Below, piece by piece: positions 9,446 to 33,914 of a stretch of DNA of 38,445 nt. Below the pieces are notes generated by a model. The model was not told the DNA's origin. It made no database searches and worked only from the letters and a program-made list of their open reading frames with translations. Location: the NCBI GenBank assembly GCA_038064675.1, contig JBBTSM010000001.1, forward strand, positions 1 to 38,445, in the 5' to 3' direction. Position numbers and translations under genes: made by a program. How positions within the stretch are numbered: the first letter of the stretch is position 1; every line of letters starts with the position of its first letter. Origin of the DNA: Patescibacteria group bacterium. Its GTDB lineage: Bacteria > Patescibacteriota > Patescibacteriia > UBA9934.

Positions 9446-9548
9446 TATTTGGCTCATTTTCGACTCGTGACATCGCAAACTTTTTCAACGTACCGAGAAG
9501 TACGTCTCAAAAGCTTTGCTCGTCACTCATCGAAACTGATCACAAATA
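9446..9548 (-). repeat. Family A hairpin copy 1
   Basis: Minus-strand core ga-gacgtac-ttctcg-gtacgtt-ga; locus-specific flanking stem extends to about 9435-9559. Confidence 0.9.
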
Positions 9549-9640
9549 TTGACGATTTCGTCCGCAGAACCTTTCAGAGTCTTTATCGAATCGACAAAGA
9601 CTGCAAAATGTATTAAGTTTGTTCAGACTTGGAACGTCGC

Positions 9641-9743
9641 CATTTGAGACCATTTTCGATAAACGAGGAGCAAAGTTCGCGAGGCGTACTTCACGGTACG
9701 TTGAGCGAATTTGCGACGCAGTGAGTCGAAAAGAGGCCAAATG
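9641..9743 (+). repeat. Family A hairpin copy 2
   Basis: Core ga-ggcgtac-ttcacg-gtacgtt-ga; flanks ggaacg.../...cgttcc. Confidence 0.9.
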
Positions 9744-9757
9744 GTGCCGTTCCACGT

Positions 9758-9833
9758 GCCATTTTAGCTCAGCTGGTAGAGCAATGCTTTCGTAAAGCAG
9801 AGGTCCCGGGTTCGATTCCCGGAAATGGCTCCA
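9758..9833 (+). tRNA. tRNA-Thr(CGT)
   Basis: Acceptor stem GCCATTT/AAATGGC, anticodon loop tt-CGT-aa, TTCGA loop, encoded CCA. Confidence 0.95.
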
Positions 9834-9839
9834 AGAAAT

Positions 9840-9864
9840 CCCCCGATCCTATCGGGGGTTTTTT
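9840..9864 (+). terminator. Intrinsic terminator after tRNA-Thr
   Basis: cccccgat-cct-atcggggg-tttttt. Confidence 0.8.
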
Positions 9865-9887
9865 GTTTCGAGTACAATGAGTGCAGT

Positions 9888-10700
9888 ATGAAAAAAACAT
9901 CCAAAAAACTTTCTTTTTCTCGCAGGCTCGCGATACTTACCCCTTTGATGCTTCTTGCGGGCATTGCTGCGGTTCGTGCTACGGAGATGCATCGTGCAGA
10001 AGTAGCGCATCCGCTTTCGTATGGCGACAATCGGCATGTGGAGAATGTGAAGTGCTCGGGGCAATGTGATGGTCTCATGCTTGTGAGTGATCAGGAACCT
10101 GATGTGCAATATTACGACGGAGCAAAAAGCCCAACATGTGCAGAGGCGATGTTGTGGGCAAATGCAAACGGCCGCGAGGACCAGATTGTGTTTGGCGGCT
10201 ACGAAATGATTGATGGGTATCAAGTGAACCTTCCAACGCAAACATTTGGGCTTGATGTTTTCAGCGGCAAAGACGTTGAATTCACGTTGCCAGATAGCGG
10301 CAGCATGTTTACTGCGCACATCAAAGACACCGGTGAATGGAATCTGCTTGATTCTGTGGCATGTGATCAGCTTGCATGTTCAGGATTTACTCGAGTACTC
10401 ACCGATCGTGATTCTGGAAGAGTTACGCTTTACGATTCTTGCGCATCGTCTTCGGATGACGCGGATATCTATGCTTTGTATCAGGCTCCAGAAGTTCATG
10501 GGCCAGATACGGGCGACACCTATCGTGTGAGCATCGGCCTTCGGGCGTTATTGAACACGGGGACAGAGACGGGATGGGTAGAAGACGTGGGATTTGAGCG
10601 AATGTACACATCCTCCGAACTCGCTGACGATACTATTCATGTTGTGGCCGATCTTGGTGACACGACATTCGAATTCGATTTGGTGAAAGACGCAGAATAA
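9888..10700 (+). CDS. Hypothetical exported or membrane-anchored protein (acidic, several Cys)
   Basis: MKKTSKK followed by a hydrophobic segment; ATG lies 9 nt after TACAAT. Confidence 0.7.
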   Translation: MKKTSKKLSFSRRLAILTPLMLLAGIAAVRATEMHRAEVAHPLSYGDNRHVENVKCSGQCDGLMLVSDQEPDVQYYDGAKSPTCAEAMLWANANGREDQIVFGGYEMIDGYQVNLPTQTFGLDVFSGKDVEFTLPDSGSMFTAHIKDTGEWNLLDSVACDQLACSGFTRVLTDRDSGRVTLYDSCASSSDDADIYALYQAPEVHGPDTGDTYRVSIGLRALLNTGTETGWVEDVGFERMYTSSELADDTIHVVADLGDTTFEFDLVKDAE

Positions 10701-10717
10701 TCGAGCGCAGCGAGCGA

Positions 10718-10896
10718 TTCAACGGGTGGCGCCGAGGGAGGTCCCCGTACGGAGCGCAACGAGCGCCGTAGTACATGATGATCACCGATGAATTCGTGCG
10801 CGCGGTGAGCACCGTAACGGGGTCCGAGGCGACAGGACCCGTTGATGAATGAGAGAAGCAGGAGTCTGGATCCCCGCCTGCGCGGGGATGACTGAA
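10718..10896 (-). repeat. Family B palindrome joined to a different long hairpin
   Basis: ctggatccccgcctgcgcggggatgactgaa at 10866-10896; hairpin closed by tcaacgggt/acccgttga at 10719-10845. Confidence 0.75.
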
Positions 10897-10938
10897 GGAG
10901 CGATCAACGAAAGGGTTGCACGTGCTATAATTCTCTGC

Positions 10939-11622
10939 ATGATCACGTTCAAAAACGTGACAAAAGAATATCCGCCAAAAACACACGCGCTTGCTGGTGT
11001 GAGTTTTCGTATTGAGGCGGGGGAGTTTGTTTCCATTACTGGTCAGAGCGGTTCGGGAAAATCTACGATCGCGAAGCTTATCTTTGCCGAAGAAAAACTC
11101 ACGAGCGGTCATATTCACATTGGTGACTGGGATATTTCCAACGTTCGACATTCCGACATTCCCATTCTTCGTCGGCAGATTGGCGTGGTGTTTCAAGATT
11201 TCAAGCTCCTTCCAAAAAAGACGGCATTCGAGAATGTTGCGTTTGCGTTGGAAGTTGCGGGGGAATCGAACAAGCGCATTCGCGAGGTTGTTCCGCATGT
11301 GTTGAAGATCGTTGGCCTTGGTGAAAAGGGTGGGCGCTATCCTCGTCAACTTTCTGGCGGTGAACAGCAGCGCGTGTCGATCGCTCGTGCGCTCGTGCAT
11401 CGGCCAAAGATTATTGTTGCCGACGAACCAACGGGAAACCTCGACGCGATTACGGCGCGAGAAATTATCGAGCTGTTTACGCGGATTAATGACTTCGGCA
11501 CCACCATTGTTCTGGTAACGCACGATCGCGACATTGTGAACGGCTTGCACCGTCGTGTCATTACGTTGCGCGATGGCAAAGTGGCATCGGACGCAGAAAA
11601 GGGTAAATATCTTCTCGCCTAG
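10939..11622 (+). CDS. ftsE: Cell division ATP-binding protein FtsE
   Basis: Motifs GQSGSGKST, LRRQIGVVFQDFKLL, LSGGEQQRV, ADEPTGNLD and VTHD; lies upstream of ftsX. Confidence 0.93.
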   Translation: MITFKNVTKEYPPKTHALAGVSFRIEAGEFVSITGQSGSGKSTIAKLIFAEEKLTSGHIHIGDWDISNVRHSDIPILRRQIGVVFQDFKLLPKKTAFENVAFALEVAGESNKRIREVVPHVLKIVGLGEKGGRYPRQLSGGEQQRVSIARALVHRPKIIVADEPTGNLDAITAREIIELFTRINDFGTTIVLVTHDRDIVNGLHRRVITLRDGKVASDAEKGKYLLA

Positions 11623-11625
11623 CGT

Positions 11626-12537
11626 ATGCGCTCATTCTTTCGCATCATTCGGTTCGCGTTGCAGAGCATGATGCGGAATTTTTGGTTGTCCTTCGTTACG
11701 GTGTCGGTATTTGTATTGACGTTGGTGACGATAAACTCCGTGATTATTTTGAACGTGCTTGCAAACGCGTCGGTAAAGAGTGTCGAGGGCCGTGTGCAGG
11801 TCACGGTGTACTTCACGTCGGATTCGTCGGAAGGCACGGTGAAGAATGTTCAAGGGTATTTGCTCGGATTGTCGCAAGTGAAGGAAGTATCGTACGTAAA
11901 GGCAGAAGAGGCGCTCGCAACATTTCAAATCATTCATCAAAACGATCCGGTGATTCTTGCTGCTTTGGACGAAGTGAATGGCAATCCGTTTGGCCAAGCC
12001 CTGAAGATTCGGGCATACAACGCGAGCGATTTTCCGTTTATTCTGGAGGCGCTCGAAACCCCAGAGTACAAGCCGTTTATTAAAGAAAAGAATTACGACA
12101 ACTACGAATCTGCGCTTAAGGTGCTGAGCGATTTCTCTGAAAAGGTTCGTCTCGGTTTTCTGATCCTCGCGCTGTTCTTTGGCTTCATCGCTGTGCTCAT
12201 CGTGTTCAACACCATCCGCGTTGCTATTTACGTGCACCGCGAAGAAATCGGTATTATGAAGCTTGTGGGTGCGAATGACTGGTTTGTACGCGGACCATTC
12301 CTCTGTGAATCGATCTTTTACGCATTGATCGCTACAGGAATCATGGCCGGCATTATCGCCGCCACGCTTTCGTTTGCGAATCCGTACATCGTCGCCTTCT
12401 TCCAGGGTGTGGATGTCGATCTCGTCGCATACTACAGTGCCAATGCTGTTCCACTTTTCGGCGCACAATTCGGTATCCTTGCGTTCCTTGGTCTTGGAAC
12501 AACAGCATTCGCGATGCGAAGATATCTCAGAGTGTAG
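11626..12537 (+). CDS. ftsX: Cell division permease FtsX
   Basis: NTIRVAIYVHREEIGIMKLVGANDWFVRGPF motif; 4-TM topology. Confidence 0.93.
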   Translation: MRSFFRIIRFALQSMMRNFWLSFVTVSVFVLTLVTINSVIILNVLANASVKSVEGRVQVTVYFTSDSSEGTVKNVQGYLLGLSQVKEVSYVKAEEALATFQIIHQNDPVILAALDEVNGNPFGQALKIRAYNASDFPFILEALETPEYKPFIKEKNYDNYESALKVLSDFSEKVRLGFLILALFFGFIAVLIVFNTIRVAIYVHREEIGIMKLVGANDWFVRGPFLCESIFYALIATGIMAGIIAATLSFANPYIVAFFQGVDVDLVAYYSANAVPLFGAQFGILAFLGLGTTAFAMRRYLRV

Positions 12538-12558
12538 GGAAGGAAAGACTTTCAACAA

Positions 12559-12592
12559 CACACCAGCCCGAGAGCTGGTGTTTTTGTGGTTC
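12559..12592 (+). terminator. Terminator after ftsX, duplicated at the tRNA-Gln 3' end
   Basis: acaccagc-ccgaga-gctggtgt-tttt; 12574-12592 is identical to 13378-13396. Confidence 0.7.
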
Positions 12593-12715
12593 TGCGTCGC
12601 GGTCTCGTTTGCGGTATTTCGAGCGTCTTTTTAGACACTCACCGCTCTGATCCGGTCAGACGGGCTTGGTCTTATGCGGGCAGCCTTTTGGAGGGAATAT
12701 GATAAGCTATTGTAT

Positions 12716-13201
12716 ATGAAATTTTTCCCGATTTTTACTCTCGGCGCGCTGACTTTGACACTCGTCGGAGCTGGTTGCATGAAGTCACTTGAGGCACGAG
12801 TCTCTCAATACGAAGATGAACGAAAAGTGTGCGTCGAGGAGAAGCGATCTGCCAGCCCCACCATAACCTTCAACGGTCTGACAAGACCCTGGGATGAAGG
12901 GGATGATTTTACAGCGGAGTACAGATGTTCAACCGTTGATCTTGCTAAAAAATATTATCAACAAGATCCGGAGGGAGTCATTGAACTTTGTGTGAGAACT
13001 AAGCAGATTGGAATGTACACATACGAAAAAGGTCTAGGCGGATCACTGACGAGTAAAGAGCTTGAACAGCTCCATACCTCGGAAACATTCGCCGATATAA
13101 CTATGGACTCTCAGGGAAAAGTAACGATCGGCGACACTACCCTTGAAAACTGGCGAGGACTTTGTAAGACCGTAATCGAAGGAGTTATCGAGGGGGATTA
13201 A
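12716..13201 (+). CDS. Hypothetical lipoprotein-like protein
   Basis: MKFFPIFTLGALTLTLVGAGC signal with lipobox-like Cys; looks AT-richer than its neighbours. Confidence 0.7.
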   Translation: MKFFPIFTLGALTLTLVGAGCMKSLEARVSQYEDERKVCVEEKRSASPTITFNGLTRPWDEGDDFTAEYRCSTVDLAKKYYQQDPEGVIELCVRTKQIGMYTYEKGLGGSLTSKELEQLHTSETFADITMDSQGKVTIGDTTLENWRGLCKTVIEGVIEGD

Positions 13202-13216
13202 ATAACCCGCCAAATG

Positions 13217-13250
13217 CAAAACCCCCGAGTCTTTCGACTTGGGGGCTTTG
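13217..13250 (+). terminator. Hairpin after the lipoprotein gene
   Basis: cccccgagtc-tttc-gacttggggg. Confidence 0.6.
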
Positions 13251-13352
13251 CTGGACCAACGCCTGATTGGTCGCTCGAACGGGTACTCGATGGAACATCG
13301 AACCGCATCCATGTTCCGTGCGCCGCTGTGCGGCTGGCCAGCTGCGCTGGCC

Positions 13353-13396
13353 GAACCACAAAAACACCAGCCGTGGGGCTGGTGTTTTTGTGGTTC
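13353..13396 (-). terminator. Perfect 19-bp inverted repeat at the tRNA-Gln 3' end
   Basis: gaaccacaaaaacaccagc-cgtggg-gctggtgtttttgtggttc. Confidence 0.7.
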
Positions 13397-13464
13397 CGGG
13401 ACATGGATTCGAACCATGGTTCACGGCTTCAAAGGCCGCTGTCCTGCCGTTAGACGATCCCGGA
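13391..13464 (-). tRNA. tRNA-Gln(TTG)
   Basis: Minus strand: acceptor TCCGGGA/TCCCGGA, anticodon arm gcggc-ct-TTG-aa-gccgt, TTCGA loop, encoded CCA. Confidence 0.95.
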
Positions 13465-13475
13465 ATGAACGTCCC

Positions 13476-13578
13476 CGTTTGGTCTATTTTGGGCTCACCG
13501 CGTCGCAAATTCGCTCAACGTACCATGAAGTACGCCTCGCGAACTTTGCTCCTTGTTCACCCAAACTAGCCTCAAACG
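13476..13578 (-). repeat. Family A hairpin copy 3
   Basis: Minus-strand core ga-ggcgtac-ttcatg-gtacgtt-ga; flanks aatgaacgt/acgttcatt abut the tRNA-Gln 5' end. Confidence 0.9.
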
Positions 13579-13743
13579 GGAACGTTCATTGTACTAATCC
13601 TTATGGGGGTGCACCGAAACTAGCCTAAAATAAAGAAATTCTCCAGGAAGTCGATCGATGCGAAGTGTATCGCAACATGAAAGAATCATCAAAGCGAGAA
13701 TACATTGTTCGATTATACCTTCAGCTTATATTAGCTAATTTTA

Positions 13744-13772
13744 TTGACAAAAGCGCACTTTTCTGATATAGT
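13744..13772 (+). promoter_or_regulatory. Sigma70-type promoter
   Basis: TTGACA-17 nt-TATAGT with TG extension. Confidence 0.75.
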
Positions 13773-13902
13773 TTTCCGTTATTCGTTGCGCATTCTTTTT
13801 GCGAAAATCTGTTGAATAAGCTATTCAACCGGTTTTCGTGGAGGGAATTTTTCCTCCGCATCATTCGCGTTCCTGTTTCGTCCCCTACCCCCGAGGTCTG
13901 CC

Positions 13903-15192
13903 ATGAATTACGGCACCGCCCGTCTCGTTGAATCTCTCGGTTCCCGGCCCGCCCCGGTTTCCGCTCGTCAGTCCGTCGTCGCCCCGGCTTCCCGCCGGGC
14001 CAGCCGGCTCGACGGCGCCATCGTGGTGAACCCGGTGGCTCCGGCGTCGCCGCCGACCTCCAAGCGTCGGTCCGACACAGCCCCCGTCGTCGCCCCGCCC
14101 ACCCCCAAGGTGGTGCGGATCCCGCGCGACCCCGCCGTTGCAGCCGCCGAAGCCGAGCGGAAGCTCCAGGCCAAGGCCGCCGAAGAAGCGGAGCTCGTGC
14201 GCAAGGCTCAGGAGGCCCGCGTGGCCGCCGAAGCCAAGGCTGTCGCCGCCCGCGTTGCGGTCGAACAACAGTTCGCCGCGGAGCGTGTTCGTCGGGCCGA
14301 GGCGGCTCGTGTTGCCGAAGCCGAAGCCGAAGCGACGGCTCGGGCCGACCGCGAAGCTGCCGAGCTCGTGCAGCGCCAGCAGCGCGAGCTGCGGGATGCG
14401 CGCGACGCGTTCATCGCGGAGGTCCGCCGGGCGCCCGATGCCTTCTTCGTTCAGGCCTGGGGCGGCAAGTACTCCCGGAGCTGGTTCGTGGAGAACATCC
14501 CGCGTGGCGATATGGAGTGGGTCGGCAAGACCCAACCCATGTTCGCCGACGTGATGGGCGACTACCGGCGCAAGGAGGCCCTCGCCGTCGCCGATGCCAA
14601 GACGGAGTTTGAGACGTTTGTCGAAGGTATCGACCTCGACGTTTTCCCGCACATCTGCCTGGGCCTCAGCTGGGCCCCGCGCCGTACGACCCGCGACGAG
14701 CTCATCAACCTGGCTCGCATCGGTACGTCGGCGCGTGAGATTGCTGACATCCGGAGCGCGGTGGCTCAGGCCATCGTGCGTCGCGACCAGGCCCGACGCG
14801 CCGCGGAAGCGGAGCTGAAGCGCAAGAAGCTCGACCCGAAGAGCAAGCACTTCGATCTGCGGGCGCATCTCGAGGCCACGGTCGGGAAGTACATCGGAGC
14901 CGACAGCCGCCCTCCTCCGAAGGAGGCTGCGGTCAACGCGAAGGCCATCGGAGCAGAAGCTTCGGGTGCGTTCACGATCCAAAGTTCGCTCCTTGCGGAG
15001 CGCATCCGACGGCTCGACCCCAAGGTCGTTGCACGGATCCATCGCGATGGGCACCAGTACGGCAAGAACCGTTGGCCGACCATCGAGCGTATGCTCGAGG
15101 TCGAGAAGTGTCCGACGTGGGGCGGTCGTGGCGAAGGCGAGAGGACCCGCGAGGGCCTTGAGCGGTTCGTCACCCGGTGCGAGCGGGGATGA
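13903..15192 (+). CDS. GC-rich orphan with Pro-rich N-terminus and Ala/Glu/Arg coiled coil
   Basis: 429-aa ORF with strong GC3 bias; GAGG SD before the ATG; own promoter and terminator. Confidence 0.75.
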   Translation: MNYGTARLVESLGSRPAPVSARQSVVAPASRRASRLDGAIVVNPVAPASPPTSKRRSDTAPVVAPPTPKVVRIPRDPAVAAAEAERKLQAKAAEEAELVRKAQEARVAAEAKAVAARVAVEQQFAAERVRRAEAARVAEAEAEATARADREAAELVQRQQRELRDARDAFIAEVRRAPDAFFVQAWGGKYSRSWFVENIPRGDMEWVGKTQPMFADVMGDYRRKEALAVADAKTEFETFVEGIDLDVFPHICLGLSWAPRRTTRDELINLARIGTSAREIADIRSAVAQAIVRRDQARRAAEAELKRKKLDPKSKHFDLRAHLEATVGKYIGADSRPPPKEAAVNAKAIGAEASGAFTIQSSLLAERIRRLDPKVVARIHRDGHQYGKNRWPTIERMLEVEKCPTWGGRGEGERTREGLERFVTRCERG

Positions 15193-15233
15193 GCCGAGCA
15201 GAGTGACCGGTGACATCACGGTGACTCACGACG

Positions 15234-15278
15234 GCGGGCCGGGAACCAATTGGTTTCCCGGCCCGCAGTTCGTTTTTA
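15234..15278 (+). terminator. Intrinsic terminator
   Basis: gcgggccgggaa...ttcccggcccgc followed by a T-rich run. Confidence 0.7.
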
Positions 15279-15312
15279 GAGAATACGGTACAATCGGGTC
15301 ATGGGGTCATCA

Positions 15313-15406
15313 TGGGGTCAGGTCTTGAATCTATGCATTTTGGAGCTTCGACCACTACAGGTTGTGGTTTAAGAAGCAAAATGCTCATTATCAAGACCTG
15401 ACCCCA
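15313..15406. repeat. 94-bp palindromic element with 16-bp perfect terminal inverted repeats (MITE/REP-like)
   Basis: tggggtcaggtcttga/tcaagacctgacccca, with inner pairings gcatttt/aaaatgc, gcttc/gaagc and accac/gtggt. Confidence 0.8.
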
Positions 15407-15418
15407 ATACAAGCCAAT

Positions 15419-16111
15419 ATGTCCAAAGTTGCTGTTGCTCAAGGGAACAATCCGGTGGTTGCGATCCGCGAGGCGATCGAGGATCTCGGTTTGGCATTCG
15501 TCGACCTCGTAAAATCCGCGAAGTCGATTTGCGTTGTTTCGACAGCATCGGATGAATCGATTCAGGCCATCATCGATGCGATCGCTTTTCACAGCCGCGT
15601 TCCGATTCATGTCTTGAACGCTGACGATGAAAGCGACGCTGTAGAATCAACGATTCCTCGAGGAGACGATGTTCGCATGTCTGTACGCCGACCTCGCTCG
15701 ATCGTGGACGCCGATGTCGTGATTTCTCTCGTGCCGATGCTCGCGGATCGTAATCGTCGAACTGCGTTGTCGATTGAACAATTTCTTTTTGCCACATGGT
15801 ACGTTCCAGAACGCCGAACTGTTCGCGGATTTGTGCGGAGCCACGAGCCGTGGTTGGAAGGGGATTTGCGCGATATTGTGCTCGCTGATCTTTACGCACA
15901 GCGGCCGATCGATCTCGCGATTGTCGACGGAACCGCAACCGCCGGTATCGTCCTCGCAAGTTTCGATCCCGTCGCCATCGACGCCGTCGCAATGCACATG
16001 AATGGAATCGATCCAGAATCTGTCGGCTATCTTACGGCGCTTTCGCAACAAGGGATGGGCGTTTGTGCGTTGTCCAGAATCGATGTTCCCCTGGGATTCA
16101 TTTCACGCTAG
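15419..16111 (+). CDS. Divergent DUF362-like protein
   Basis: MSKVAV start, DADVVISL, IDLAIVDG, and ASFDPVAIDAVA...GIDPESVGYL..L...GMG C-terminus. Confidence 0.65.
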   Translation: MSKVAVAQGNNPVVAIREAIEDLGLAFVDLVKSAKSICVVSTASDESIQAIIDAIAFHSRVPIHVLNADDESDAVESTIPRGDDVRMSVRRPRSIVDADVVISLVPMLADRNRRTALSIEQFLFATWYVPERRTVRGFVRSHEPWLEGDLRDIVLADLYAQRPIDLAIVDGTATAGIVLASFDPVAIDAVAMHMNGIDPESVGYLTALSQQGMGVCALSRIDVPLGFISR

Positions 16112-16122
16112 AATACTTCACA

Positions 16123-16181
16123 TCACTCGCCCATTTTGCCCAAGGCGTAACCGCCGATCGCCCAAGCGCAGCGATCGCTCA
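16123..16181 (+). repeat. Family D four-box leader motif copy 2
   Basis: tcgccca-ttgcccaa-[ggcg taac cgcc]-tcgcccaa-[gcgcagc]-tcgctca, ending 9 nt before ATG 16191. Confidence 0.8.
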
Positions 16182-16190
16182 ATACTCCCT

Positions 16191-16679
16191 ATGTCCACCT
16201 GTATTTTTCCCGGTCGGTTTCAGCCATTCCACGAAGGCCATTTGCTCGTGGTGCAAGGCATGATGAAAATTCATGGCAATGCCACCATCGCGATTTGCGA
16301 AGGGAAGTCTGAGCATGGTTCGGACACGCCGTTTACTGTGGCACAGCGTCACGAGATGATTAGCGCCGCATTGCTCTCTGCCGACATCACCGAAGCAACC
16401 ATCGTCGACGTTGTTGATAAGCCAGCGGACGAGCAGTGGGTAGATGCGGTGCTTGATGCTGCGGGCCGGCCAACAGAACCGTTGGTGTGGAGTGGACGCG
16501 ACGAGATTCGGGCGATGTTCGATGCGAAGAAGATTCCTACAAAAAAGATTGTTCCGGTCCCCGGTATCGACGGCGCCGCGATTCGGTCTGCGATCGTGAG
16601 CGGGAAGGTGGACGAATGGCGAAAAAAGATTCCTGCTGGCGCACTGGATGTGGTGATGGAAATTGTGAACAAACGGTAA
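16191..16679 (+). CDS. HxGH nucleotidyltransferase (NMN adenylyltransferase/NadM-like)
   Basis: Motifs FPGRFQPFHEGH, TPFTVAQRHEMI and GAAIR. Confidence 0.8.
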   Translation: MSTCIFPGRFQPFHEGHLLVVQGMMKIHGNATIAICEGKSEHGSDTPFTVAQRHEMISAALLSADITEATIVDVVDKPADEQWVDAVLDAAGRPTEPLVWSGRDEIRAMFDAKKIPTKKIVPVPGIDGAAIRSAIVSGKVDEWRKKIPAGALDVVMEIVNKR

Positions 16680-16689
16680 AACAGCGCGG

Positions 16690-16728
16690 CCCGGGCCTCC
16701 TTGCGGAAGTCCGGGCCGTTGCGTCGTG
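16690..16728 (-). terminator. 39-bp repeated terminator copy 1
   Basis: Minus strand cccggacttcc-GCAA-ggaggcccggg followed by T-run; identical to 17231-17269. Confidence 0.75.
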
Positions 16729-16731
16729 ACA

Positions 16732-17121
16732 CTACTGGCGCGTGTAGCACAGCAGCGCGTCATGGAACATCTGGGAGTAGCCCGCGTAGTCCGATGGTTC
16801 CGCGGGCAGGGTCTCGATCCCATCGAGGACTCCGTCCGCTCCGGTGTCGATGAACGAGTAGTAGGCGAAGCCGCCACGCGAGCTCACGATGTTGACGGTG
16901 ACGTACAGCGTCTGACGCCCAGCGGTGTCCACGCTCAAGCCGACCAACGTACTGGCGTTCATCGCGTAGCAGTTCGGAGTGCTGAACGACGTCGTGAAGC
17001 CGGGGAAGATGGCACGATGATCGGCGTTCTTCAGTTCGGCGACGGCCTTGCTGACCAGAACTGCGTCGGTCGGTGGATCGAAGGCGCTTGCGGTGAGGGA
17101 GAAGAGCAGAATCGAGAGCAT
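16732..17121 (-). CDS. GC-rich secreted orphan with DxxADGxxD motif
   Basis: GGAGG SD, signal peptide MLSILLFSLTASA, motif DTGADGVLD. Confidence 0.7.
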   Translation of the reverse strand: MLSILLFSLTASAFDPPTDAVLVSKAVAELKNADHRAIFPGFTTSFSTPNCYAMNASTLVGLSVDTAGRQTLYVTVNIVSSRGGFAYYSFIDTGADGVLDGIETLPAEPSDYAGYSQMFHDALLCYTRQ

Positions 17122-17165
17122 CGGGATGCCTCCGTGGGTTGCTTCCATAGTTTGGAAGTCCTCTA

Positions 17166-17194
17166 ATATTAGCAGATTTTCCGACTTTTTGCAA
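17166..17194 (-). promoter_or_regulatory. Sigma70-type promoter
   Basis: Minus strand TTGCAA-17 nt-TAATAT with TG extension. Confidence 0.6.
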
Positions 17195-17230
17195 GCCGGA
17201 GATTGTAAATGGCCAATAAAACGTACGCGA

Positions 17231-17269
17231 CCCGGGCCTCCTTGCGGAAGTCCGGGCCGTTGCGTCGTG
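17231..17269 (-). terminator. 39-bp repeated terminator copy 2
   Basis: Identical to 16690-16728. Confidence 0.75.
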
Positions 17270-17294
17270 GCGAACAATCAGATCGAGTACGTCG

Positions 17295-17807
17295 CTACTT
17301 CGTGGTGGAAACGATACAGTGAATCATGCCGTCGAAGATTGTCTGGGCGCTGGGGATCGATAGCCGGTGGTCGAGTTGATTCTCATCCACGATGCCGTCG
17401 GCGTTCACGTCGCTCACGAAGTAGGGATCGACGGGACCTTTGATTCCGATTCGACCCACTTTGACGGCCACGGTGATGGACGTCACGGTCACTCCCTGCC
17501 CGAGCGTCGCTCGCACGACACTCATTCCTCCTCCGCATTGTGGTGGATCGTATTCCCGGATTTCCACCGGGGTGGACTTTCCGTCGAGGCCTTTGATGGC
17601 GTCTTCGGAGCGCCCGCCCTTTGCGTCGACAACGGCTACGGCCCTCGCGACGTCCTTGGGCTCGGCGCCCCACGCCAGACCCAGGCCGCAGATACTGACG
17701 AACAGGATGACGATGGTGACGAAGATTCGCTGCAGGTTGGCGAACCAGAGCACGAGATTCACGGCGTCTTCGACGACGACGAGAATGAAAGGGGCAGGAC
17801 CGAACAT
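17295..17807 (-). CDS. GC-rich membrane or secreted orphan with DxxADGxxD motif
   Basis: GGAGG SD, hydrophobic N-region ending AWG-AE, motif DVNADGIVD. Confidence 0.7.
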   Translation of the reverse strand: MFGPAPFILVVVEDAVNLVLWFANLQRIFVTIVILFVSICGLGLAWGAEPKDVARAVAVVDAKGGRSEDAIKGLDGKSTPVEIREYDPPQCGGGMSVVRATLGQGVTVTSITVAVKVGRIGIKGPVDPYFVSDVNADGIVDENQLDHRLSIPSAQTIFDGMIHCIVSTTK

Positions 17808-17849
17808 GGGAACCTCCAAGAAAGATATTCGCAAACTTTTGCCAAAAAT

Positions 17850-17880
17850 TCAATACCGAGCCTTGCGGGCTCGGTATTGA
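17850..17880 (-). terminator. Hairpin downstream of the SPFH gene
   Basis: tcaataccgagcc...ggctcggtattga; GCAA loop and T-run on the minus strand. Confidence 0.65.
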
Positions 17881-17900
17881 ATTGAGTTTTGCGCCTTTTC

Positions 17901-18003
17901 CATTTGAGGCTAGTTTCGATGAACGAGGAACAAAGATCGCGAGGCGTACTTAACGGTACGTTGAGCGATTTTGTGACGAAGTGAGTCGAAAATAGACCAA
18001 ATG
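17901..18003 (+). repeat. Family A hairpin copy 4
   Basis: Core ga-ggcgtac-ttaacg-gtacgtt-ga; flanks gcgccttttc/ggggaggcgc. Confidence 0.9.
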
Positions 18004-18014
18004 GGGGAGGCGCA

Positions 18015-18758
18015 CTACATTCCCTTCTTAAACCCTTCGATCGCTTTCAGTACCTCGAGCGGTACTGCAAAGACCACAGTATTCGATGCGTCAGACGAGA
18101 TGTCGTTGATCGAGTTCAGTGTGCGGAGGTGCAGGGCGCCTGGAGCGGCGGAGAGCATGATTGCGGCCTTGGAAAGGTTTTCTGCAGCAGCGACTTCGCC
18201 TTCCGAATTGATGATGACGGCGCGGCGCTCGCGCTCGGCCTCGGCTTGCTTTGCAATAGTGCGCACCATGTCTGGTGGCAAGTTGATGTCCTTCAGCTCA
18301 ACCGCTGTCACTTCTACGCCCCATCCGCCAGTTGCCGCCTCAACAAGCTGTTCGATTCGCGATGAAATCTGCTGGCGTTGCGAAAGGAGTTCGTCGAGAG
18401 TAACTTCACCAACCACGTTTCGCATCGTCGTTTGTGCAAGTTGGAGCACCGCCCAGTGGACGTGCTCAACTTCGATGACGGACTTCTGTGCATCCACGAT
18501 TTTGTAATAGATGACAGCAGTGATTTTTGCAGAAACGTTGTCCTTTGTAATCGCGTCTTGTGGGGGAACTTCCACCGCTTTCAAACGAAGATCAACTTTG
18601 GTCATTGATTGAAAGATCGGGAACACAATCCGCCATCCTGGATTGATCATGCTTGAATAGCGGCCCATGGTGAACTTCACGCCGCGCTCGTACTGGTTGA
18701 CCTGTCGGAGTGAAATGAGGATAACGATTGCGATGACGATGAGAAAAAAATATGGCAT
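18015..18758 (-). CDS. SPFH/band-7 (stomatin/slipin) protein
   Basis: Motifs QYERGVKF, VDLR, ITKDNV, LAQTTMRNVVG, QAEAERERRA and ALHLRTL. Confidence 0.92.
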   Translation of the reverse strand: MPYFFLIVIAIVILISLRQVNQYERGVKFTMGRYSSMINPGWRIVFPIFQSMTKVDLRLKAVEVPPQDAITKDNVSAKITAVIYYKIVDAQKSVIEVEHVHWAVLQLAQTTMRNVVGEVTLDELLSQRQQISSRIEQLVEAATGGWGVEVTAVELKDINLPPDMVRTIAKQAEAERERRAVIINSEGEVAAAENLSKAAIMLSAAPGALHLRTLNSINDISSDASNTVVFAVPLEVLKAIEGFKKGM

Positions 18759-18785
18759 AGAAGGAGTAAAGAGTATGCAATAGTG

Positions 18786-19700
18786 TTAGTCCGATTGCGG
18801 GCAAAGCGCAAGGAGGGTGGCAAGAAATGCCTCGTGTGCCGGTTTCTTCTCAACCACCACGTGATAGATCGACTGAATGAACGGGAGATCTGAGAGCACG
18901 ATGCCAGGAATGTTCACGATGCACGGAATAGTGTTGAGCGCTTCGCTTCCGCGAACGGGTTTGAGACTCTGGGCGAATCGGATACCTGTGGTGTAATTTG
19001 TTGAGTTCGCGCTTTGCGATGTTGCCACAAGATCACCCAGACCTGCAGGGCCGAATGCGGTTTGTGGATTCCCGCCAACGGTCGTAACGAGATGCATCAT
19101 TTCTTGTGCAGCTTGCGCCACAAGCGCTCCGTGAATATTGCTTCCCATCTTAAGACCGTCGCAAATGCCGAGTCCGAGTGCGTAGATATTCTTGAGCGCG
19201 GCCGCGAGCACTGCTCCAGCCAGATCGTCTGTTTGGCAGATGACAAGTGGCGTGCGATTGAAGAGCCCTGCGACTGTTGCTCTCGCCTCGATCGATGTAC
19301 TTGCAGCGATGCCGATTGCCGGAAGCCCAGAGAGAATTTCTTCTGCAATCATCGGGCCACCTAGAAATACGAATGGATTATGGTTTGGGAGATTTTGCGG
19401 GAACAGCGTATCTACGCGATGACAGGTTTCTTTCTCAAATCCCTTGGATGGGCTGACGACGATGGTTTTTGGATTCAGGAATGGATGGACGCTCTGTAAT
19501 GCAGATCGTGTGGTCCATGTTGGTACGCACACAAAGAGCACATCGCACGTTGGAATGATTGCCTCCAATGGGTGTTGTTCTGGAATGATGTCGCTATTTT
19601 TATCCCAACATGTCACCGTGACGTCCTTTTGTGGAAGGAGGAGGTGATGAATGGCTTTTCCAAATTCTCCGTATCCAAGAATCACGACCTGTGTGGTCAT
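18786..19700 (-). CDS. gpsA: NAD(P)H-dependent glycerol-3-phosphate dehydrogenase
   Basis: Motifs ILGYGEFG, SKGFE, GGPMIAEE, ALKNIYALGLG and GPAGLGDLVAT. Confidence 0.88.
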   Translation of the reverse strand: MTTQVVILGYGEFGKAIHHLLLPQKDVTVTCWDKNSDIIPEQHPLEAIIPTCDVLFVCVPTWTTRSALQSVHPFLNPKTIVVSPSKGFEKETCHRVDTLFPQNLPNHNPFVFLGGPMIAEEILSGLPAIGIAASTSIEARATVAGLFNRTPLVICQTDDLAGAVLAAALKNIYALGLGICDGLKMGSNIHGALVAQAAQEMMHLVTTVGGNPQTAFGPAGLGDLVATSQSANSTNYTTGIRFAQSLKPVRGSEALNTIPCIVNIPGIVLSDLPFIQSIYHVVVEKKPAHEAFLATLLALCPQSD

Positions 19701-22034: not shown

Positions 22035-22051
22035 GAACGATTAGGACTTTC

Positions 22052-22157
22052 TCATTTTAGACTATTTTCGGTGCGCCAGGAGCAAAGCTTGCGAGGCGTA
22101 CTTCATGGTACGTTGAGCAAGTTTGCGACGCAGTAAGCCGAAAAAAGTCAAAATGAG
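22052..22157 (+). repeat. Family A hairpin copy 5
   Basis: Core ga-ggcgtac-ttcatg-gtacgtt-ga; ends ctcatttt/aaaatgag. Confidence 0.9.
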
Positions 22158-22167
22158 GAAGGACTAT

Positions 22168-22534: not shown

Positions 22535-22594
22535 GGGGTATCTGTATTGCATGATTGTCTGCTTTGAACTATGAAGGAGGTAAGAATTTGTTGT

Positions 22595-28093: not shown

Positions 28094-28096
28094 CAG

Positions 28097-31754: not shown

Positions 31755-31777
31755 CGTGTCGTGGCGCGCGCGGTCGC

Positions 31778-32293
31778 CTATAGGTCATCCGCTTCCGCGT
31801 CGGCGCGTTCGGCTTGCGCCAGGCACCAGTCGATGCCGGCCTCTGGAGAGTTCCCGAGGGTGTTGACGTAGGACATATAGACGCAGTCCTGCGTCTGCCG
31901 ATCCATCGCGTCCCAGATCCTTCCGTTGTTGAGCGTCCAGCGTTTGAAGGCCGTCGCCCGACCGGAGAGCGTGTCGGGCTCGCCGTTGTCGAAGAATTCA
32001 TTCGGTTGATCCGGCAGGAGCGTCTCGTCGATCGCGCCCGGAACGAATTCCACGTCCGGACTCGTCTTGGGAATCGGGATGAAGAGCGCCGCGAGACTCG
32101 AGTCGCTGTTCGGTGCGTCCATCGGCGTGCCGGTGTCGACGATGTCGACCTCCTCGACGTTGAGATCGATGTGATTCGACGGCTGCGGCTTTGGCCGCGA
32201 ACGGAAGAAGTCGTGAGCGAGGATGAAGACGATGCCGCAGGCGGCAATTGCGGTGGAGATCAGGCGAATGAGGGCTGCGTTTGAAATGTTCAA
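31778..32293 (-). CDS. GC-rich single-TM acidic orphan
   Basis: AGGAG SD before TTG start, N-terminal TM, strong GC3 bias. Confidence 0.65.
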   Translation of the reverse strand: MNISNAALIRLISTAIAACGIVFILAHDFFRSRPKPQPSNHIDLNVEEVDIVDTGTPMDAPNSDSSLAALFIPIPKTSPDVEFVPGAIDETLLPDQPNEFFDNGEPDTLSGRATAFKRWTLNNGRIWDAMDRQTQDCVYMSYVNTLGNSPEAGIDWCLAQAERADAEADDL

Positions 32294-32365
32294 GGCTGCT
32301 CCTAAGGGCGAAGGTTCGAGTTTCGAAACGATGAAGCACGCTCCCCACGGTATCAGAAATACCGG

Positions 32366-32374
32366 TTATCCACA
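32366..32374 (+). promoter_or_regulatory. DnaA box
   Basis: Perfect TTATCCACA upstream of mraZ. Confidence 0.55.
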
Positions 32375-32406
32375 AGTTTTAGCCAAATTTCGTGATCACG
32401 AACGTC

Positions 32407-32446
32407 AAAGTGGTGTAAAGTGGGGCCATGAGGAGAAAAGTGGGGA
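32407..32446 (+). promoter_or_regulatory. MraZ-binding direct repeats
   Basis: aaaGTGGtgt aaaGTGGggc catGAGGaga aaaGTGGgga with 10-bp period, directly upstream of mraZ. Confidence 0.8.
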
Positions 32447-32485
32447 AACTCCACTTGAAAACTACTCATACTAAAGCATTGCGCC

Positions 32486-32917
32486 ATGTTCCTTGGTCAA
32501 TACAACCATTCTATCGACGACAAAGGACGGCTCGCCGTTCCAATGAAGTTTCGAGAAGCACTCGCGTATGGCGCGGTGGTGACGCGAGGCTTGGACTCTT
32601 CATTATTCCTGCTGCCCTTGGAGGAGTGGGGCAAATTAGCGACATCGCTCGCGAATTTACCCTTGGGGCAGGCTAACGCACGTGCATTCGCCAGGCTCAT
32701 GCTTGCTGGGGCAATGGATGTGGTGTTGGACAAGCAGGGACGGTGTGTCGTTCCGGAGTATTTGCGTCAATATGCAGGCCTCCGGAAGGACGTGGTCATC
32801 GTAGGAGTGAACACGCGCCTGGAAATTTGGGACGTCGAGAAATGGCAGACGTATGTCGCTTCAACGGAAAAGGACGCGGAAAAGATTGCAGAGAACCTCA
32901 GTTCTATGGGACTTTAG
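32486..32917 (+). CDS. mraZ: Transcriptional regulator MraZ
   Basis: MFLGQYNHSIDDKGRLAVP, LDKQGR and RLEIWD motifs. Confidence 0.96.
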   Translation: MFLGQYNHSIDDKGRLAVPMKFREALAYGAVVTRGLDSSLFLLPLEEWGKLATSLANLPLGQANARAFARLMLAGAMDVVLDKQGRCVVPEYLRQYAGLRKDVVIVGVNTRLEIWDVEKWQTYVASTEKDAEKIAENLSSMGL

Positions 32918-32923
32918 CGCCCT

Positions 32924-33796
32924 ATGAGCTCCGATTCCGCAAAAGTCCACATTCCTGTTCTTGCCAACGAAGTACTGAGCGGCCTGGCATTGAAGCCTGG
33001 CAGTCGAGTACTCGACGGCACCATTGGCCTTGGCGGACACGCGAAGCTTATGCTCGCGGTAACGCAGCCTAACGGGGAATTGGTTGGGTTCGATCGTGAC
33101 GATCGGAACTTGATCGTGGCAAAGGAACGCTGCGCAGAATTCGGTGATCGCGTCACGCTCATTCACGATTCGTTCAGTTCAATCGGTGCTCGCGACGTTG
33201 GAACCTTCGACGCGATGCTGTTCGACCTCGGATTTTCTTCGGTACACGTAGACGACGCGTCGCGAGGCTTCTCCTTCATGAAGGACGGGCCGCTCGACAT
33301 GCGCTACGACACGCGCCAGGAATTATCTGCTGAAGTGATTGTGAACACGTGGACGCGTGAAGACCTTACGACGATTCTCCGCCGACTCGGTGAAGAGCCG
33401 CGGAGTGCCATTATCGCGAAGGCCATCGTGGATGCTCGACGGGAAATGCGCATTGACACGACGTATCAACTTGCAGAAATCGTTGCAAGCGTCGTCCATC
33501 GTTCGGGAAAAATTCATCCGGCAACGAAAACATTTCAAGCGTTGCGCATTGTGGTGAACGACGAGCTTGGGGAGGTTGAACGAGGACTTACTGCGGCGCT
33601 CGCAAAGTTGAACAGCGGTGGACGATGCGCGGTGATCACATTCCATTCACTCGAAGATCGTTTAGTGAAGACACTTTTTAAAACTCAGGCTGGTCTGAAG
33701 CCGATCACGAAGAAACCTATCATCGCCACGCAAACGGAGATGATTGAGAATCCTCGCTCACGCAGCGCAAAGTTACGCATCGTCGAAAAGAATTAA
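32924..33796 (+). CDS. rsmH: 16S rRNA m4C1402 methyltransferase
   Basis: Motifs HIPVL, DGTIGLGGH, DLGFSS, GPLDMR, HPATKTFQALRI, ITFHSLEDR and NPRSRSAKLR. Confidence 0.97.
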   Translation: MSSDSAKVHIPVLANEVLSGLALKPGSRVLDGTIGLGGHAKLMLAVTQPNGELVGFDRDDRNLIVAKERCAEFGDRVTLIHDSFSSIGARDVGTFDAMLFDLGFSSVHVDDASRGFSFMKDGPLDMRYDTRQELSAEVIVNTWTREDLTTILRRLGEEPRSAIIAKAIVDARREMRIDTTYQLAEIVASVVHRSGKIHPATKTFQALRIVVNDELGEVERGLTAALAKLNSGGRCAVITFHSLEDRLVKTLFKTQAGLKPITKKPIIATQTEMIENPRSRSAKLRIVEKN

Positions 33797-33811
33797 TACT
33801 TATGACTTGCA

Positions 33812-33914
33812 TATTTGAGACCAGTTTCGATGAAGGGCGAGGAAAGCTTCTGAGGCGTACTTCTTGGTACGTTGAAGAAGTTTCCGAAGGCCTGAGTCGA
33901 AAATGGGCCAAATA
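33812..33914 (+). repeat. Family A hairpin copy 6
   Basis: Core ga-ggcgtac-ttcttg-gtacgtt-ga; flanks ttatgactt/aagtcataa. Confidence 0.9.

What the first reader, a model, noticed from the sequence alone, without database searches (positions are those of the whole stretch)
9446..33914. Family A: six long hairpins with compensatory changes, tandem G.A pairs and a fixed apical core
Seen: copies at 9446-9548(-), 9641-9743(+), 13476-13578(-), 17901-18003(+), 22052-22157(+) and 33812-33914(+) share GA-GRCGTAC-TTN3G-GTACGTT-GA. The next stem varies but always pairs: ctttt/aaaag, ttcgc/gcgaa (two copies), atcgc/gcgat, cttgc/gcaag, cttct/agaag. The following stem does too (gcaaa/tttgc, acaaa/tttgt, ggaaa/tttcc), as does the outer one (ttcga/tcgaa, ttggg/cccaa, ttcgg/ccgaa). 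Stems are separated by GA/GA mismatches, which can form sheared pairs on one strand only. That strand is sense to the nearest gene in copies 2, 3 and 6 and antisense in 1, 4 and 5. Inference: a protein-recognised single-strand structure, probably acting as DNA (REPIN- or attC-like in logic), whose enzyme is not in this window. This is the best candidate here for an undescribed system.
Basis: partly seen in the sequence, partly recalled or inferred. Interest (0 to 1): 0.82.

Follow-up and report, generated by a model that had tools for sequence, protein, structure and literature searches.

The report
Mobile long-hairpin repeat at gene ends
The six look-alike stretches are copies of a roughly 127-base DNA repeat that folds into one long hairpin; it has spread to dozens of sites flush against genes in this tiny bacterium, has relatives in several other bacterial phyla, and has no known enzyme or function.

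Summary
All six copies are real. The 1.05-Mb genome holds 58 copies. Stems covary far beyond shuffled controls, and the strand carrying the GA/GA mismatches and G.T pairs folds better in 56 of 58 copies.

The same architecture and apex recur at high copy in a Nitrospira MAG and in Geobacter sp. OR-1. A variant-apex relative was printed in 2009 as uncharacterised "predicted short RNA elements" of Geobacter metallireducens. Rfam 15 has no match. This scan has flagged the family several times before on other DNA.

The element is mobile: empty and filled orthologous sites exist, and the genus holds 2 to 92 copies per genome.

Its 3' foot abuts tRNA or gene boundaries in 33 of 57 copies, the 5' foot in 8 of 58. 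There is no replication-strand bias and no flanking target motif.

No partner enzyme emerged. The genome's Y1 (RAYT-like) genes carry their own unrelated inverted repeats, and Y1 presence does not track copy number. attC and REP defining features are not met.

One old copy replaces the tmRNA terminator and shows compensatory change in place.

Verdict: a mobile REP/MITE-like hairpin repeat, mechanism unknown.

The parts
9435..9559 (-). Copy 1: 103-nt core at 9446-9548 plus an 11-bp outer stem. Its 3' foot lies 1 nt from the 3' end of tRNA-Gly.
   Evidence: Absent at the orthologous site in G012, G006, G008 and G001 (L074), present in G010.
9627..9757 (+). Copy 2: core at 9641-9743 plus the outer stem. 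Its 3' foot lies 0-3 nt from the 5' end of tRNA-Thr.
   Evidence: Present in G012 and G006, absent in G010, G008 and G001 (L074). 88% identical to the G012 orthologue.
13464..13590 (-). Copy 3: core at 13476-13578 plus a 12-bp outer stem. Its 3' foot touches the 5' end of tRNA-Gln.
17886..18018 (+). Copy 4: core at 17901-18003 plus the outer stem. Its 3' foot overlaps the stop codon of the convergent SPFH/Band-7 gene (18015-18758, minus strand).
   Evidence: No family A copy at the corresponding place in G012, G010 or G008.
22042..22166 (+). Copy 5: core at 22053-22155 plus an 11-bp outer stem. It is inserted between a canonical bidirectional terminator (22004-22033) and the stop codon of the convergent gene 22168-22455.
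   Evidence: The site is empty in G010, G008 and G012.
33800..33926 (+). Copy 6: core at 33812-33914 plus a 12-bp outer stem. It fills the spacer between two same-strand genes, 3 nt after the stop of 32924-33796 and 7 nt before the start of 33934-34260.

Best explanation
Family A is a lineage-specific burst of a non-autonomous, mobile, roughly 127-nt palindromic repeat. It belongs to a superfamily found in several bacterial phyla.

Shown:
- The unit is kept as one long rod-like hairpin on one particular strand. Helices covary, while an apical stem-loop (GA-GRCGTAC-TT..G-GTACGTT-GA) and an internal loop (AAGG opposite AAC in the other phyla) stay constant.
- Copies are gained and lost between related genomes.
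- New copies land in very short spacers with the 3' foot of the folding strand against a tRNA, tmRNA or protein-gene boundary.

Inferred:
- A trans-acting protein that reads the constant apex and loop on the folded single strand copies or moves the element.
- That protein is none of the standard transposase families tested here, so it may be an unrecognised or housekeeping enzyme.
- Most copies are selfish passengers.
- Some old copies have been taken over by the host. One example is the copy occupying the terminator slot behind the tmRNA gene, where pairing has been maintained by compensatory change in place.
For: Copy number and distribution:
- 58 full copies in G000.
- Model R1 finds 2 to 92 matches per genome in all 14 genomes of the genus, but matches in only 6 of 150 other Patescibacteria sampled.

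Gain and loss:
- The tRNA-Gly/tRNA-Thr spacer is 8 nt and empty in G008. It holds copy 1 only in G010, copy 2 only in G012 and G006, and both in G000.
- The copy 5 site is empty in G010, G008 and G012, and the terminator and stop codon on either side are conserved.

Superfamily:
- The 21-base core occurs in 24 contigs titled Nitrospira/Nitrospirae, Delta-/Thermodesulfobacteriota, Geobacter, Binatia, Bryobacterales and Bacillota. By my own arithmetic, about 0.3 matches are expected by chance.
- These contigs are homologous over the full length.
- R1 finds at least 91 copies in one Nitrospira MAG and at least 42 in Geobacter sp. OR-1.

Covariation across phyla:
- 92.1% of cells pair.
- 186 cells are changed on both sides, against 55.6 +/- 6.2 in shuffles (0 of 500 reach the observed value) and 27-61 when partners are slid.

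Strand asymmetry.

Polarity:
- The 3' foot lies within 10 nt of a boundary in 33 of 57 copies, the 5' foot in 8 of 58; medians are 5 and 63 nt.
- In other phyla the 3' foot lies within 4 nt of, or overlaps, the end of a convergent ORF in 14 of 31 copies, the 5' foot in 3 of 31. Of 10 such ORFs checked, 8 have Pfam domains.

Co-option at the tmRNA locus:
- The element sits flush behind tmRNA in 6 of 9 loci.
- G008 has a short canonical terminator there instead.
- The orthologues differ by both-sided changes at many pairs.
Against: - No mobilising enzyme was found. Y1_Tnp is absent from the richest genome (G006, 92 copies) and present three times in each of the poorest (G013, G004).
- In 23 Geobacter-family genomes, Y1 count and copy number are unrelated (Spearman rho -0.15; 4 of 15 genomes with at least 10 copies have no Y1).
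- DDE_3, the TnpB TNB domain and IS110 are in 0 of 5 high-copy genomes. rve and DDE_Tnp_1 are only in G006. RVT_1 is absent from G006.
- No target-site duplication could be read, because the nearest genomes are only 75-85% identical.
- No flanking motif exists on the flush side (at most 0.07 bits per position).
- Orientation shows no GC-skew bias, which does not fit IS200/IS605-type insertion at replication forks.
- Compensatory change in place at the tmRNA locus fits a host function better than pure selfishness, although gene conversion between copies could mimic it.
- Gene calls come from my own crude script, and protein start sites are approximate.
Confidence: 0.55

Rival explanations
1. 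A structured RNA module. The hairpin is transcribed with or beside its neighbour and acts as RNA. It could be a processing or punctuation site (for example for RNase III) next to mature tRNA, tmRNA and mRNA ends, a transcriptional insulator, or the binding site of a conserved RNA-binding protein. Its spread would then be secondary.
For: - Constant loops with covarying helices across phyla are the usual signature of a structured RNA.
- Many fixed G.U-type pairs and tandem G.A pairs occur on one strand only.
- The foot lies 0-6 nt from mature tRNA 5' or 3' ends in 14 copies called by script, plus one more seen by eye.
- Pairing is maintained by compensatory change in place at the tmRNA locus, where another genome has a plain terminator.
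- The Geobacter authors also read their relatives as short RNA elements (PMC2700814, passages seen).
Against: - The folding strand is antisense to the abutting gene at 17 of the 33 flush sites in G000 (13 CDS ends and 4 tRNA ends) and at the 14 flush outgroup sites, all convergent ORF ends. On the neighbour's transcript the weaker strand would form.
- No sigma-70-like promoter is enriched in the 5' flank (5 of 58 against 2 of 57 in the mirror control).
- Copy number of 2 to 92 within one genus, and empty orthologous sites, show that most copies are dispensable.
- Rfam has no matching family.
Confidence: 0.22
2. A true REPIN/REP system, or a TIR family, mobilised by the Y1 HUH (RAYT or TIRYT) transposases encoded elsewhere in the genome.
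For: - G000 has three Y1_Tnp genes, and two reach NCBIfam's REP-associated tyrosine transposase cut-off (80.6 and 82.8 bits against 80).
- One of them (contig 3, 167101-167961) has two family A copies within about 500 nt of its 3' end.
- Published REPs also sit close to the 3' end of the upstream ORF, and their tag can supply the stop codon (PMC3733652, section 15).
Against: - Both full-length Y1 genes are bracketed by their own 29-33-nt inverted repeats containing GGGGTCAGGTCTT. This fits the published TIRYT motif GGGGWSAS and is unrelated to family A (PMC3733652, section 16).
- Of 11 Y1 loci scanned in five genomes, only that one has adjacent copies; one other has a copy 1.2 kb away.
- Y1 presence does not follow copy number in the genus or in the Geobacter family.
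- A GTAG tag is at the 5' foot in 1 of 58 copies and at the 3' foot in 4 of 58; a CGTC tag in none.
- The half-element did not look self-complementary by eye, unlike a REP; this was not computed.
Confidence: 0.1
3. A classical DDE-type MITE that duplicates a TA target, like the Correia/NEMIS or ERIC type elements (recalled from memory, not tested here). It would be moved by an IS630/mariner-like or other DDE transposase.
For: - Many copies end TA-GGAC...GTCC-TA. 10 of 58 show the TA-flanked form at both ends.
- Size and palindromic shape resemble those families.
Against: - DDE_3 is found in 0 of 5 high-copy genomes. DDE_Tnp_1 and rve are only in G006.
- tRNA-adjacent copies and most outgroup copies lack TA flanks.
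- The copy 5 empty sites show no TA at the junction.
- The most conserved part is the apex, not the ends.
- No solitary arms or gene-bearing parent element turned up in G000.
Confidence: 0.06
4. Ordinary intrinsic terminators, or integron-type attC recombination sites.
For: - Outgroup members carry A5...T5 tracts around the inner hairpin.
- The tmRNA-adjacent copy is flanked by A4/T4 and stands where G008 has a terminator.
- attC sites are also strand-specific folded hairpins (recalled).
Against: - Family A copies are followed by a T-run in 4 of 58 (GA strand) and 7 of 58 (opposite strand), against a 6.3% background.
- Copy 5 sits next to a canonical terminator.
- 16 copies abut gene or tRNA starts.
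- attC boxes RYYYAAC and GTTRRRY occur together in 0 of 58 copies.
- No integron integrase scores above the cut-off (best 89 bits against 265).
Confidence: 0.04

Closest known systems
[quoted passage not shown] 2009, PMC2700814)
   Same: - Dispersed intergenic multicopy hairpin.
- The printed central palindrome GRCGTAGCGCTGCTACGCC occurs in 22 of 23 Geobacter-family genomes, up to 71 times.
- My model R1 matches 6 of 8 such loci over its full length (E from 3e-8 to 0.026). These share the ends GGCTGTTCAAAA...TTTTCAACAGCC, the CAGAT/AGATG tandem G.A and the AAGGCGCCC/GGGCAACG loop.
   Different: - The apex stem-loop differs (GGCGTAGC-AGC-GCTACGCC, fully Watson-Crick, against GRCGTAC-TTN3-4G-GTACGTT with two G.T pairs).
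- The paper only lists the family and guesses at an RNA role.
- Its alignment is in supplementary files I could not open.
- I found no later paper naming these loci.
REP / REPIN elements with RAYT transposases; TIR families with TIRYT (PMC3733652; PMC6006769; PMC3116915 seen only as a search listing)
   Same: - Abundant extragenic palindromes that fold as single strands.
- Patchy across phyla, with lineage-specific bursts.
- One end lies close to the 3' end of the upstream ORF and can overlap its stop codon (compared).
   Different: - One 127-nt rod, not a 20-40-nt REP or a doublet of self-complementary REPs.
- No GTAG or CGTC tag.
- The conserved part is the apex, not the foot.
- The Y1 genes present have other inverted repeats, and their presence does not track copy number.
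ERIC, Correia/NEMIS and similar palindromic MITEs (recalled from memory, not tested against their sequences)
   Same: About 100-160-bp imperfect palindromes in intergenic DNA, co-transcribed with neighbours, often touching stop or start codons, some with TA at both ends.
   Different: - No DDE transposase partner in the carriers tested.
- Apex and internal loop conserved across phyla.
- Strong one-strand bias.
- A fixed polarity toward the gene boundary.
Integron attC sites
   Same: Function is thought to depend on one folded strand rather than on the duplex sequence; stems vary while the fold is kept.
   Different: R/L boxes are absent (0 of 58 copies), there is no integron integrase, the copies do not bound cassettes, and they abut core genes such as tRNAs.

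Membership tests
REP/REPIN-RAYT | Unpaired GTAG (or CGTC) tag at the foot of the palindrome | tested here: not met
   GTAG is at the 5' foot in 1 of 58 copies and its complement at the 3' foot in 4 of 58; CGTC in 0. Some outgroup copies have CTAG or TTAG next to the 3' foot because a stop codon lies there.
REP/REPIN-RAYT | A RAYT gene flanked by the same repeats (REPtron), one per REP family | tested here: not met
   Both full Y1 genes are flanked by their own GGGGTCAGGTCTT inverted repeats. R1 finds adjacent copies at 1 of 11 Y1 loci.
REP/REPIN-RAYT | Co-occurrence of the transposase with the repeat population | tested here: not met
   G006 has 92 copies and 0 Y1 genes; G013 and G004 have 3 and 2 copies and 3 Y1 genes each. 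In the Geobacter family rho is -0.15 over 23 genomes. Related genomes are not independent, and completeness is unknown for the Geobacter set.
REP/REPIN-RAYT | REPIN = two inverted, individually palindromic REPs | not tested
   By eye the arms are not self-complementary and only the whole unit and the apex fold. I did not fold the half-elements separately.
Integron attC | R''/R' core boxes (RYYYAAC ... GTTRRRY) at the base of the hairpin | tested here: not met
   Both boxes occur together in 0 of 58 copies.
Integron attC | Integron integrase and a cassette array | tested here: not met
   Best TIGR02249 score is 89.1 bits against a cut-off of 265. Copies are dispersed beside core genes.
DDE-type MITE | Terminal inverted repeats shared with a parent IS, and a target-site duplication | tested here: inconclusive
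   No parent element or solitary arm was found in G000. TA flanks both ends in 10 of 58 copies. The empty sites are too diverged to read a duplication.
DDE-type MITE | A matching transposase in carrier genomes | tested here: not met
   DDE_3 in 0 of 5, IS110 DEDD in 0 of 5, TnpB TNB domain in 0 of 5; rve and DDE_Tnp_1 only in G006.
Intrinsic terminator | Hairpin followed by a T/U tract | tested here: not met
   4 of 58 and 7 of 58 copies against a 6.3% background. The scan of 9300-23000 flags no full copy. The feature is met by the divergent tmRNA-adjacent copy.
Any Rfam 15 family | Covariance-model match | tested here: not met
   No hit at gathering score in the window. No hit at E up to 10 on copies 1 and 2 except a chance miRNA model. 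No hit on 9 loci holding outgroup or divergent members.
Geobacter 'predicted short RNA elements' (Gmet_R1005 type) | Central palindrome GRCGTAGCGCTGCTACGCC within an intergenic multicopy unit of about 120 nt | tested here: inconclusive
   The window copies do not carry that palindrome, so they are not members in the strict sense. R1 links the two groups over their full length at 6 of 8 loci, so they belong to one superfamily.

The most novel reading that the evidence does not exclude
The element is not moved by any transposase. It is a cross-phylum structured nucleic-acid module whose invariant apex and AAGG/AAC loop are read, on one folded strand, by a widely conserved host protein involved in replication, repair or RNA processing. 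That interaction both inserts new copies with fixed polarity exactly at the edges of functional genes and gives old copies a role as gene-boundary punctuation (termination, insulation or RNA-end definition). This would be a mobile element class defined by a host-read structure rather than by its own enzyme.
Probability: 0.2. Interest if true: 0.85.

Novelty: new variant of a known kind. Interest (0 to 1): 0.6.

Why it matters
Small palindromic repeats are common in bacteria, yet only the REP/RAYT pair has a proposed enzyme. This family shows three things together:
- It crosses phyla with an unchanged tip and internal loop while every helix turns over.
- It reaches one copy per 10-20 kb in genomes of about 1 Mb that lack the usual transposases.
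- It always turns the same end toward a gene boundary.

That combination points to an unrecognised way of copying or placing DNA, or to an unrecognised structured RNA or DNA signal at gene ends. The family also occurs in cultivable Geobacter, so the question can be taken to the bench. In practice, these repeats break metagenome assemblies and can be mistaken for tRNA leaders or regulatory RNAs.

Tried and rejected
- **Rfam:** gathering and E-value modes gave nothing.
- **Neighbour genes:** no gene family is shared around the 24 outgroup loci.
- **Y1/RAYT linkage:** rejected.
- **Other candidate enzyme families** (DDE_3, TnpB, IS110, rve, DDE_Tnp_1, RVT_1): none is common to the carriers.
- **DUF559 (my own idea that a Vsr-like nuclease might read the G.T pairs):**
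  - In the genus it is present in 5 of 6 genomes with at least 32 copies and in 2 of 8 with fewer.
  - In the Geobacter family, 3 of 15 genomes with at least 10 copies lack it, and the one genome with 0 copies has four.
  - I dropped it.
- **Replication-strand bias:** none.
- **Shared or transduced 5' flanks:** none.
- **Flanking target motif:** none on the 3' side, and only a weak A at -2 on the 5' side.
- **Own promoter in the 5' flank:** not enriched.
- **Terminator form:** not met.
- **Subfamily versus target type:** tRNA-adjacent and gene-adjacent copies are interleaved in a core tree, and I read no support values.
- **Sequencing runs:** no RNA holder is listed. Laying four DNA runs showed only that contigs break at the repeats, and that relatives have an empty tRNA-Gly/tRNA-Thr spacer.
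- **Metagenome loci for the gene left of copy 5:** the best relative is 58% identical, so no near-identical strain was found to read a target duplication.
- **Plasmids:** no match for a window copy or an outgroup copy.
- **Viral contigs:** one hit, apex only and no full element.
- **Literature searches:**
  - The motif words gave only primer-like coincidences in the 10 papers listed of 268.
  - Searches on the locus tags and on REPIN/RAYT/Nitrospira terms gave no description of this family beyond PMC2700814.

Full report
**1. The observation**

The six stretches align over 103 nt with 84% mean column identity. They fold into one hairpin of 39 pairs, 15 of which show a both-sided change that keeps the pair. 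The flanks show that the hairpin continues for another 11-15 bp on each side, giving about 127 nt, and this outer stem also covaries.

The window lies in a 1,051,274-base assembly of 10 contigs at about 51% G+C. Earlier notes of this scan place it in Patescibacteria. A profile of the six copies finds 61 hits, 58 of them full length. I used these 58 throughout.

Over 41 consensus pairs, 95.3% of cells pair. 415 cells are changed on both sides, against 112 +/- 14 in 300 shuffles.

The apex with GA on both sides is exact in 33 of 58 copies, relaxed in 44 of 58, and never present on the opposite strand. Four copies carry a compensatory C-G to T-A change inside the apex stem.

At least six more divergent relatives lie in the same genome, next to tmRNA and in tRNA clusters.

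**2. One strand folds**

With the outer stem included, the GA strand is more stable than its complement in 56 of 58 copies. The mean energies are -63.8 against -48.9 kcal/mol with RNA parameters and -35.5 against -27.9 with DNA parameters.

G.T cells outnumber A.C cells 207 to 27 in G000 and 140 to 22 across phyla. At pairs whose majority state is Watson-Crick the counts are still 55 to 25 and 55 to 21.

**3. A superfamily across phyla, once noted in print**

The 21-base core occurs in 24 contigs of the species-representative collection. By record title they are:

| Title group | Contigs |
|---|---|
| Nitrospira/Nitrospirae | 7 |
| Delta-/Thermodesulfobacteriota, including Geobacter sp. OR-1 | 12 |
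| Binatia | 1 |
| Bryobacterales | 1 |
| Bacillota | 2 |
| 'Gammaproteobacteria' | 1 |

The last contig has the same coordinates as a genome of the window's own genus. About 0.3 chance matches are expected by my arithmetic.

These contigs are alike over the whole length. They share ends (GGCTGTTCAAAAAGG...CCTTTTTCAACAGCC), a CAGATG/CAGATG tandem G.A, and an internal loop of AAGG opposite AAC.

A covariance model built from 21 of them (R1) gives these counts. They are lower bounds, because only 150 candidates per genome are scored.

| Genome | R1 matches |
|---|---|
| G000 | 57 |
| Nitrospira MAG (G043) | 91 |
| Geobacter sp. OR-1 (G042) | 42 |
| G041 | 7 |
| G044 | 3 |

On 34 distinct sequences from these phyla:
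- 92.1% of cells pair.
- 186 cells are changed on both sides, against 55.6 +/- 6.2 in shuffles (0 of 500 reach the observed value).
- The slid controls give 27-61.

Rfam 15 has no match.

The only printed record I found is Aklujkar et al. 2009 (PMC2700814; passages read). [quoted passage not shown]
- That palindrome occurs in 22 of 23 Geobacter-family genomes.
- R1 matches 6 of 8 such loci over its full length.
- So this is the same superfamily with a different apex.
- Its alignment is in supplements I could not open.
- No later paper in the library names those loci.

**4. Mobility**

R1 finds 2 to 92 copies in all 14 genomes of the genus, but matches in only 6 of 150 other Patescibacteria sampled (stricter filters).

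At the tRNA-Gly/tRNA-Thr spacer:
- G008 has 8 nt and no element.
- G010 has copy 1 only.
- G012 and G006 have copy 2 only.
- G000 has both.

Contigs from other groundwater runs also join the two tRNAs with 7-10 other letters between them.

Copies 4 and 5 have no counterpart in G012, G010 or G008.

At the copy 5 site the three relatives keep the same bidirectional terminator and the same stop codon, with 10-17 nt between them. In G000 the element sits 1 nt from that stop codon, with 8 nt of the spacer left on its 5' side. The genomes are too diverged to read a target duplication, and no closer strain was found.

**5. Polarity toward genes**

| Foot of the folding strand | Within 10 nt of a boundary | Median distance |
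|---|---|---|
| 3' foot | 33 of 57 copies | 5 nt |
| 5' foot | 8 of 58 copies | 63 nt |

The 33 flush boundaries are 13 gene ends, 10 tRNA starts, 6 gene starts and 4 tRNA ends. All six window copies follow the rule.

In the other phyla the 3' foot lies within 4 nt of, or overlaps, the end of a convergent ORF in 14 of 31 copies, the 5' foot in 3 of 31. I checked 10 of those ORFs, and 8 have Pfam domains running to their C-termini.

Further findings on placement:
- No motif lies on the flush side (at most 0.07 bits per position), and only a weak A at -2 on the other side.
- The 5' flanks are not shared between copies.
- Orientation is unrelated to GC skew (31 with, 27 against).

Published REPs show a similar habit. 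They lie close to the 3' end of the upstream ORF, and the tag sometimes supplies the stop codon (PMC3733652, section 15).

**6. The search for a partner**

G000 has three Y1 HUH genes, and two reach NCBIfam's REP-associated transposase cut-off. One has two family A copies just downstream.

Evidence against these as the partner:
- Both genes are bracketed by their own 29-33-nt inverted repeats containing GGGGTCAGGTCTT. This fits the GGGGWSAS motif of published TIRYT elements (PMC3733652, section 16; PMC6006769, passages).
- Only 1 of 11 Y1 loci examined has adjacent hairpins.
- In the genus, the richest genome has no Y1 gene and the two poorest have three each.
- In 23 Geobacter-family genomes the correlation is -0.15.

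DDE_3, TnpB, IS110, rve, DDE_Tnp_1 and RVT_1 are not shared by the carriers. DUF559 does not hold up either. No plasmid or virus carrying the element was found.

**7. Not plain terminators or attC sites, but one copy looks co-opted**

Family A copies lack T-runs (4 and 7 of 58 against a 6.3% background), and copy 5 lies beside a canonical terminator. attC boxes and an integron integrase are absent.

A divergent member sits 2 nt behind the tmRNA gene in 6 of 9 complete loci of the genus. G003 has one about 110 nt away. G011 has none. G008 has a short canonical terminator at that place instead.

The six orthologues are flanked by A4/T4. They differ by both-sided changes at many pairs, including inside the apex, while the tmRNA gene itself is 84-96% identical between them. 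This points to selection on pairing at a fixed locus, although gene conversion from other copies cannot be excluded. The G.T-rich strand there is antisense to tmRNA.

**8. Reading**

The best-supported picture is a mobile, non-autonomous hairpin repeat of the REP/MITE kind that must fold on one strand. It is placed with fixed polarity at gene edges and moved by something not yet recognised, and a few old copies have been put to use by the host.

Shown:
- the fold;
- the strand bias;
- the mobility;
- the polarity;
- the cross-phylum kinship.

Inferred:
- the trans-acting reader of the apex and loop;
- the selfish status of most copies;
- the terminator role of the tmRNA copy.

This scan had already reported the same family on other DNA. 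I re-tested its main claims here. New here are:
- the negative evidence on Y1 transposases;
- the lack of replication-strand bias;
- the copy 5 empty site;
- the tmRNA-locus replacement of a terminator.

Noticed in passing
window about 15300-15420; also genome contig 10 at 2420-3400 and contig 3 at 167101-167961: A second repeat family. The core GGGGTCAGGTCTT occurs 18 times in the genome in three subtypes. It forms the 29-33-nt terminal inverted repeats of two Y1 (TIRYT-like, C-terminal HTH) transposase genes, and also gene-less inverted pairs. One such pair is inside the window (motifs at 15314 on the plus strand and 15393 on the minus strand).
   Followed up: partly
genome contig 2 at 174736-174854 (locus L028 737-855): A divergent, outgroup-like member of the hairpin superfamily lies 2 nt behind the tmRNA gene. 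The position is conserved in 6 of 9 genus loci, and G008 has a short canonical terminator there instead.
   Followed up: yes
genome contig 3 at 151521-151814 (locus L029): Two more divergent members sit in a tRNA-Thr/tRNA-Tyr/tRNA-Thr cluster, one with the apex GAAACGTAC...GTACGTTGA.
   Followed up: partly
L009 (record titled uncultured Gammaproteobacteria): This 0.7-Mb MAG gives the same contig coordinates as G011 of the window's own genus, so its public label looks wrong.
   Followed up: no
window 22004-22033: A canonical bidirectional intrinsic terminator lies between two convergent genes and is conserved in three relatives. In those relatives the same spacer holds other inserts of 220 to 825 nt, so the site is an insertion hot spot.
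   Followed up: partly
window 4487-7524: Two adjacent Mur-ligase-family genes follow a P-type cation ATPase. This looks like ordinary cell-wall gene content for a small-genome bacterium.
   Followed up: no
L051 (Geobacter sp. OR-1, contig 55, 157669-157918): Two members of the superfamily stand head to tail about 10 nt apart. Geobacter sp. OR-1 carries both apex types: at least 42 R1 matches and 21 matches to the published palindrome.
   Followed up: no
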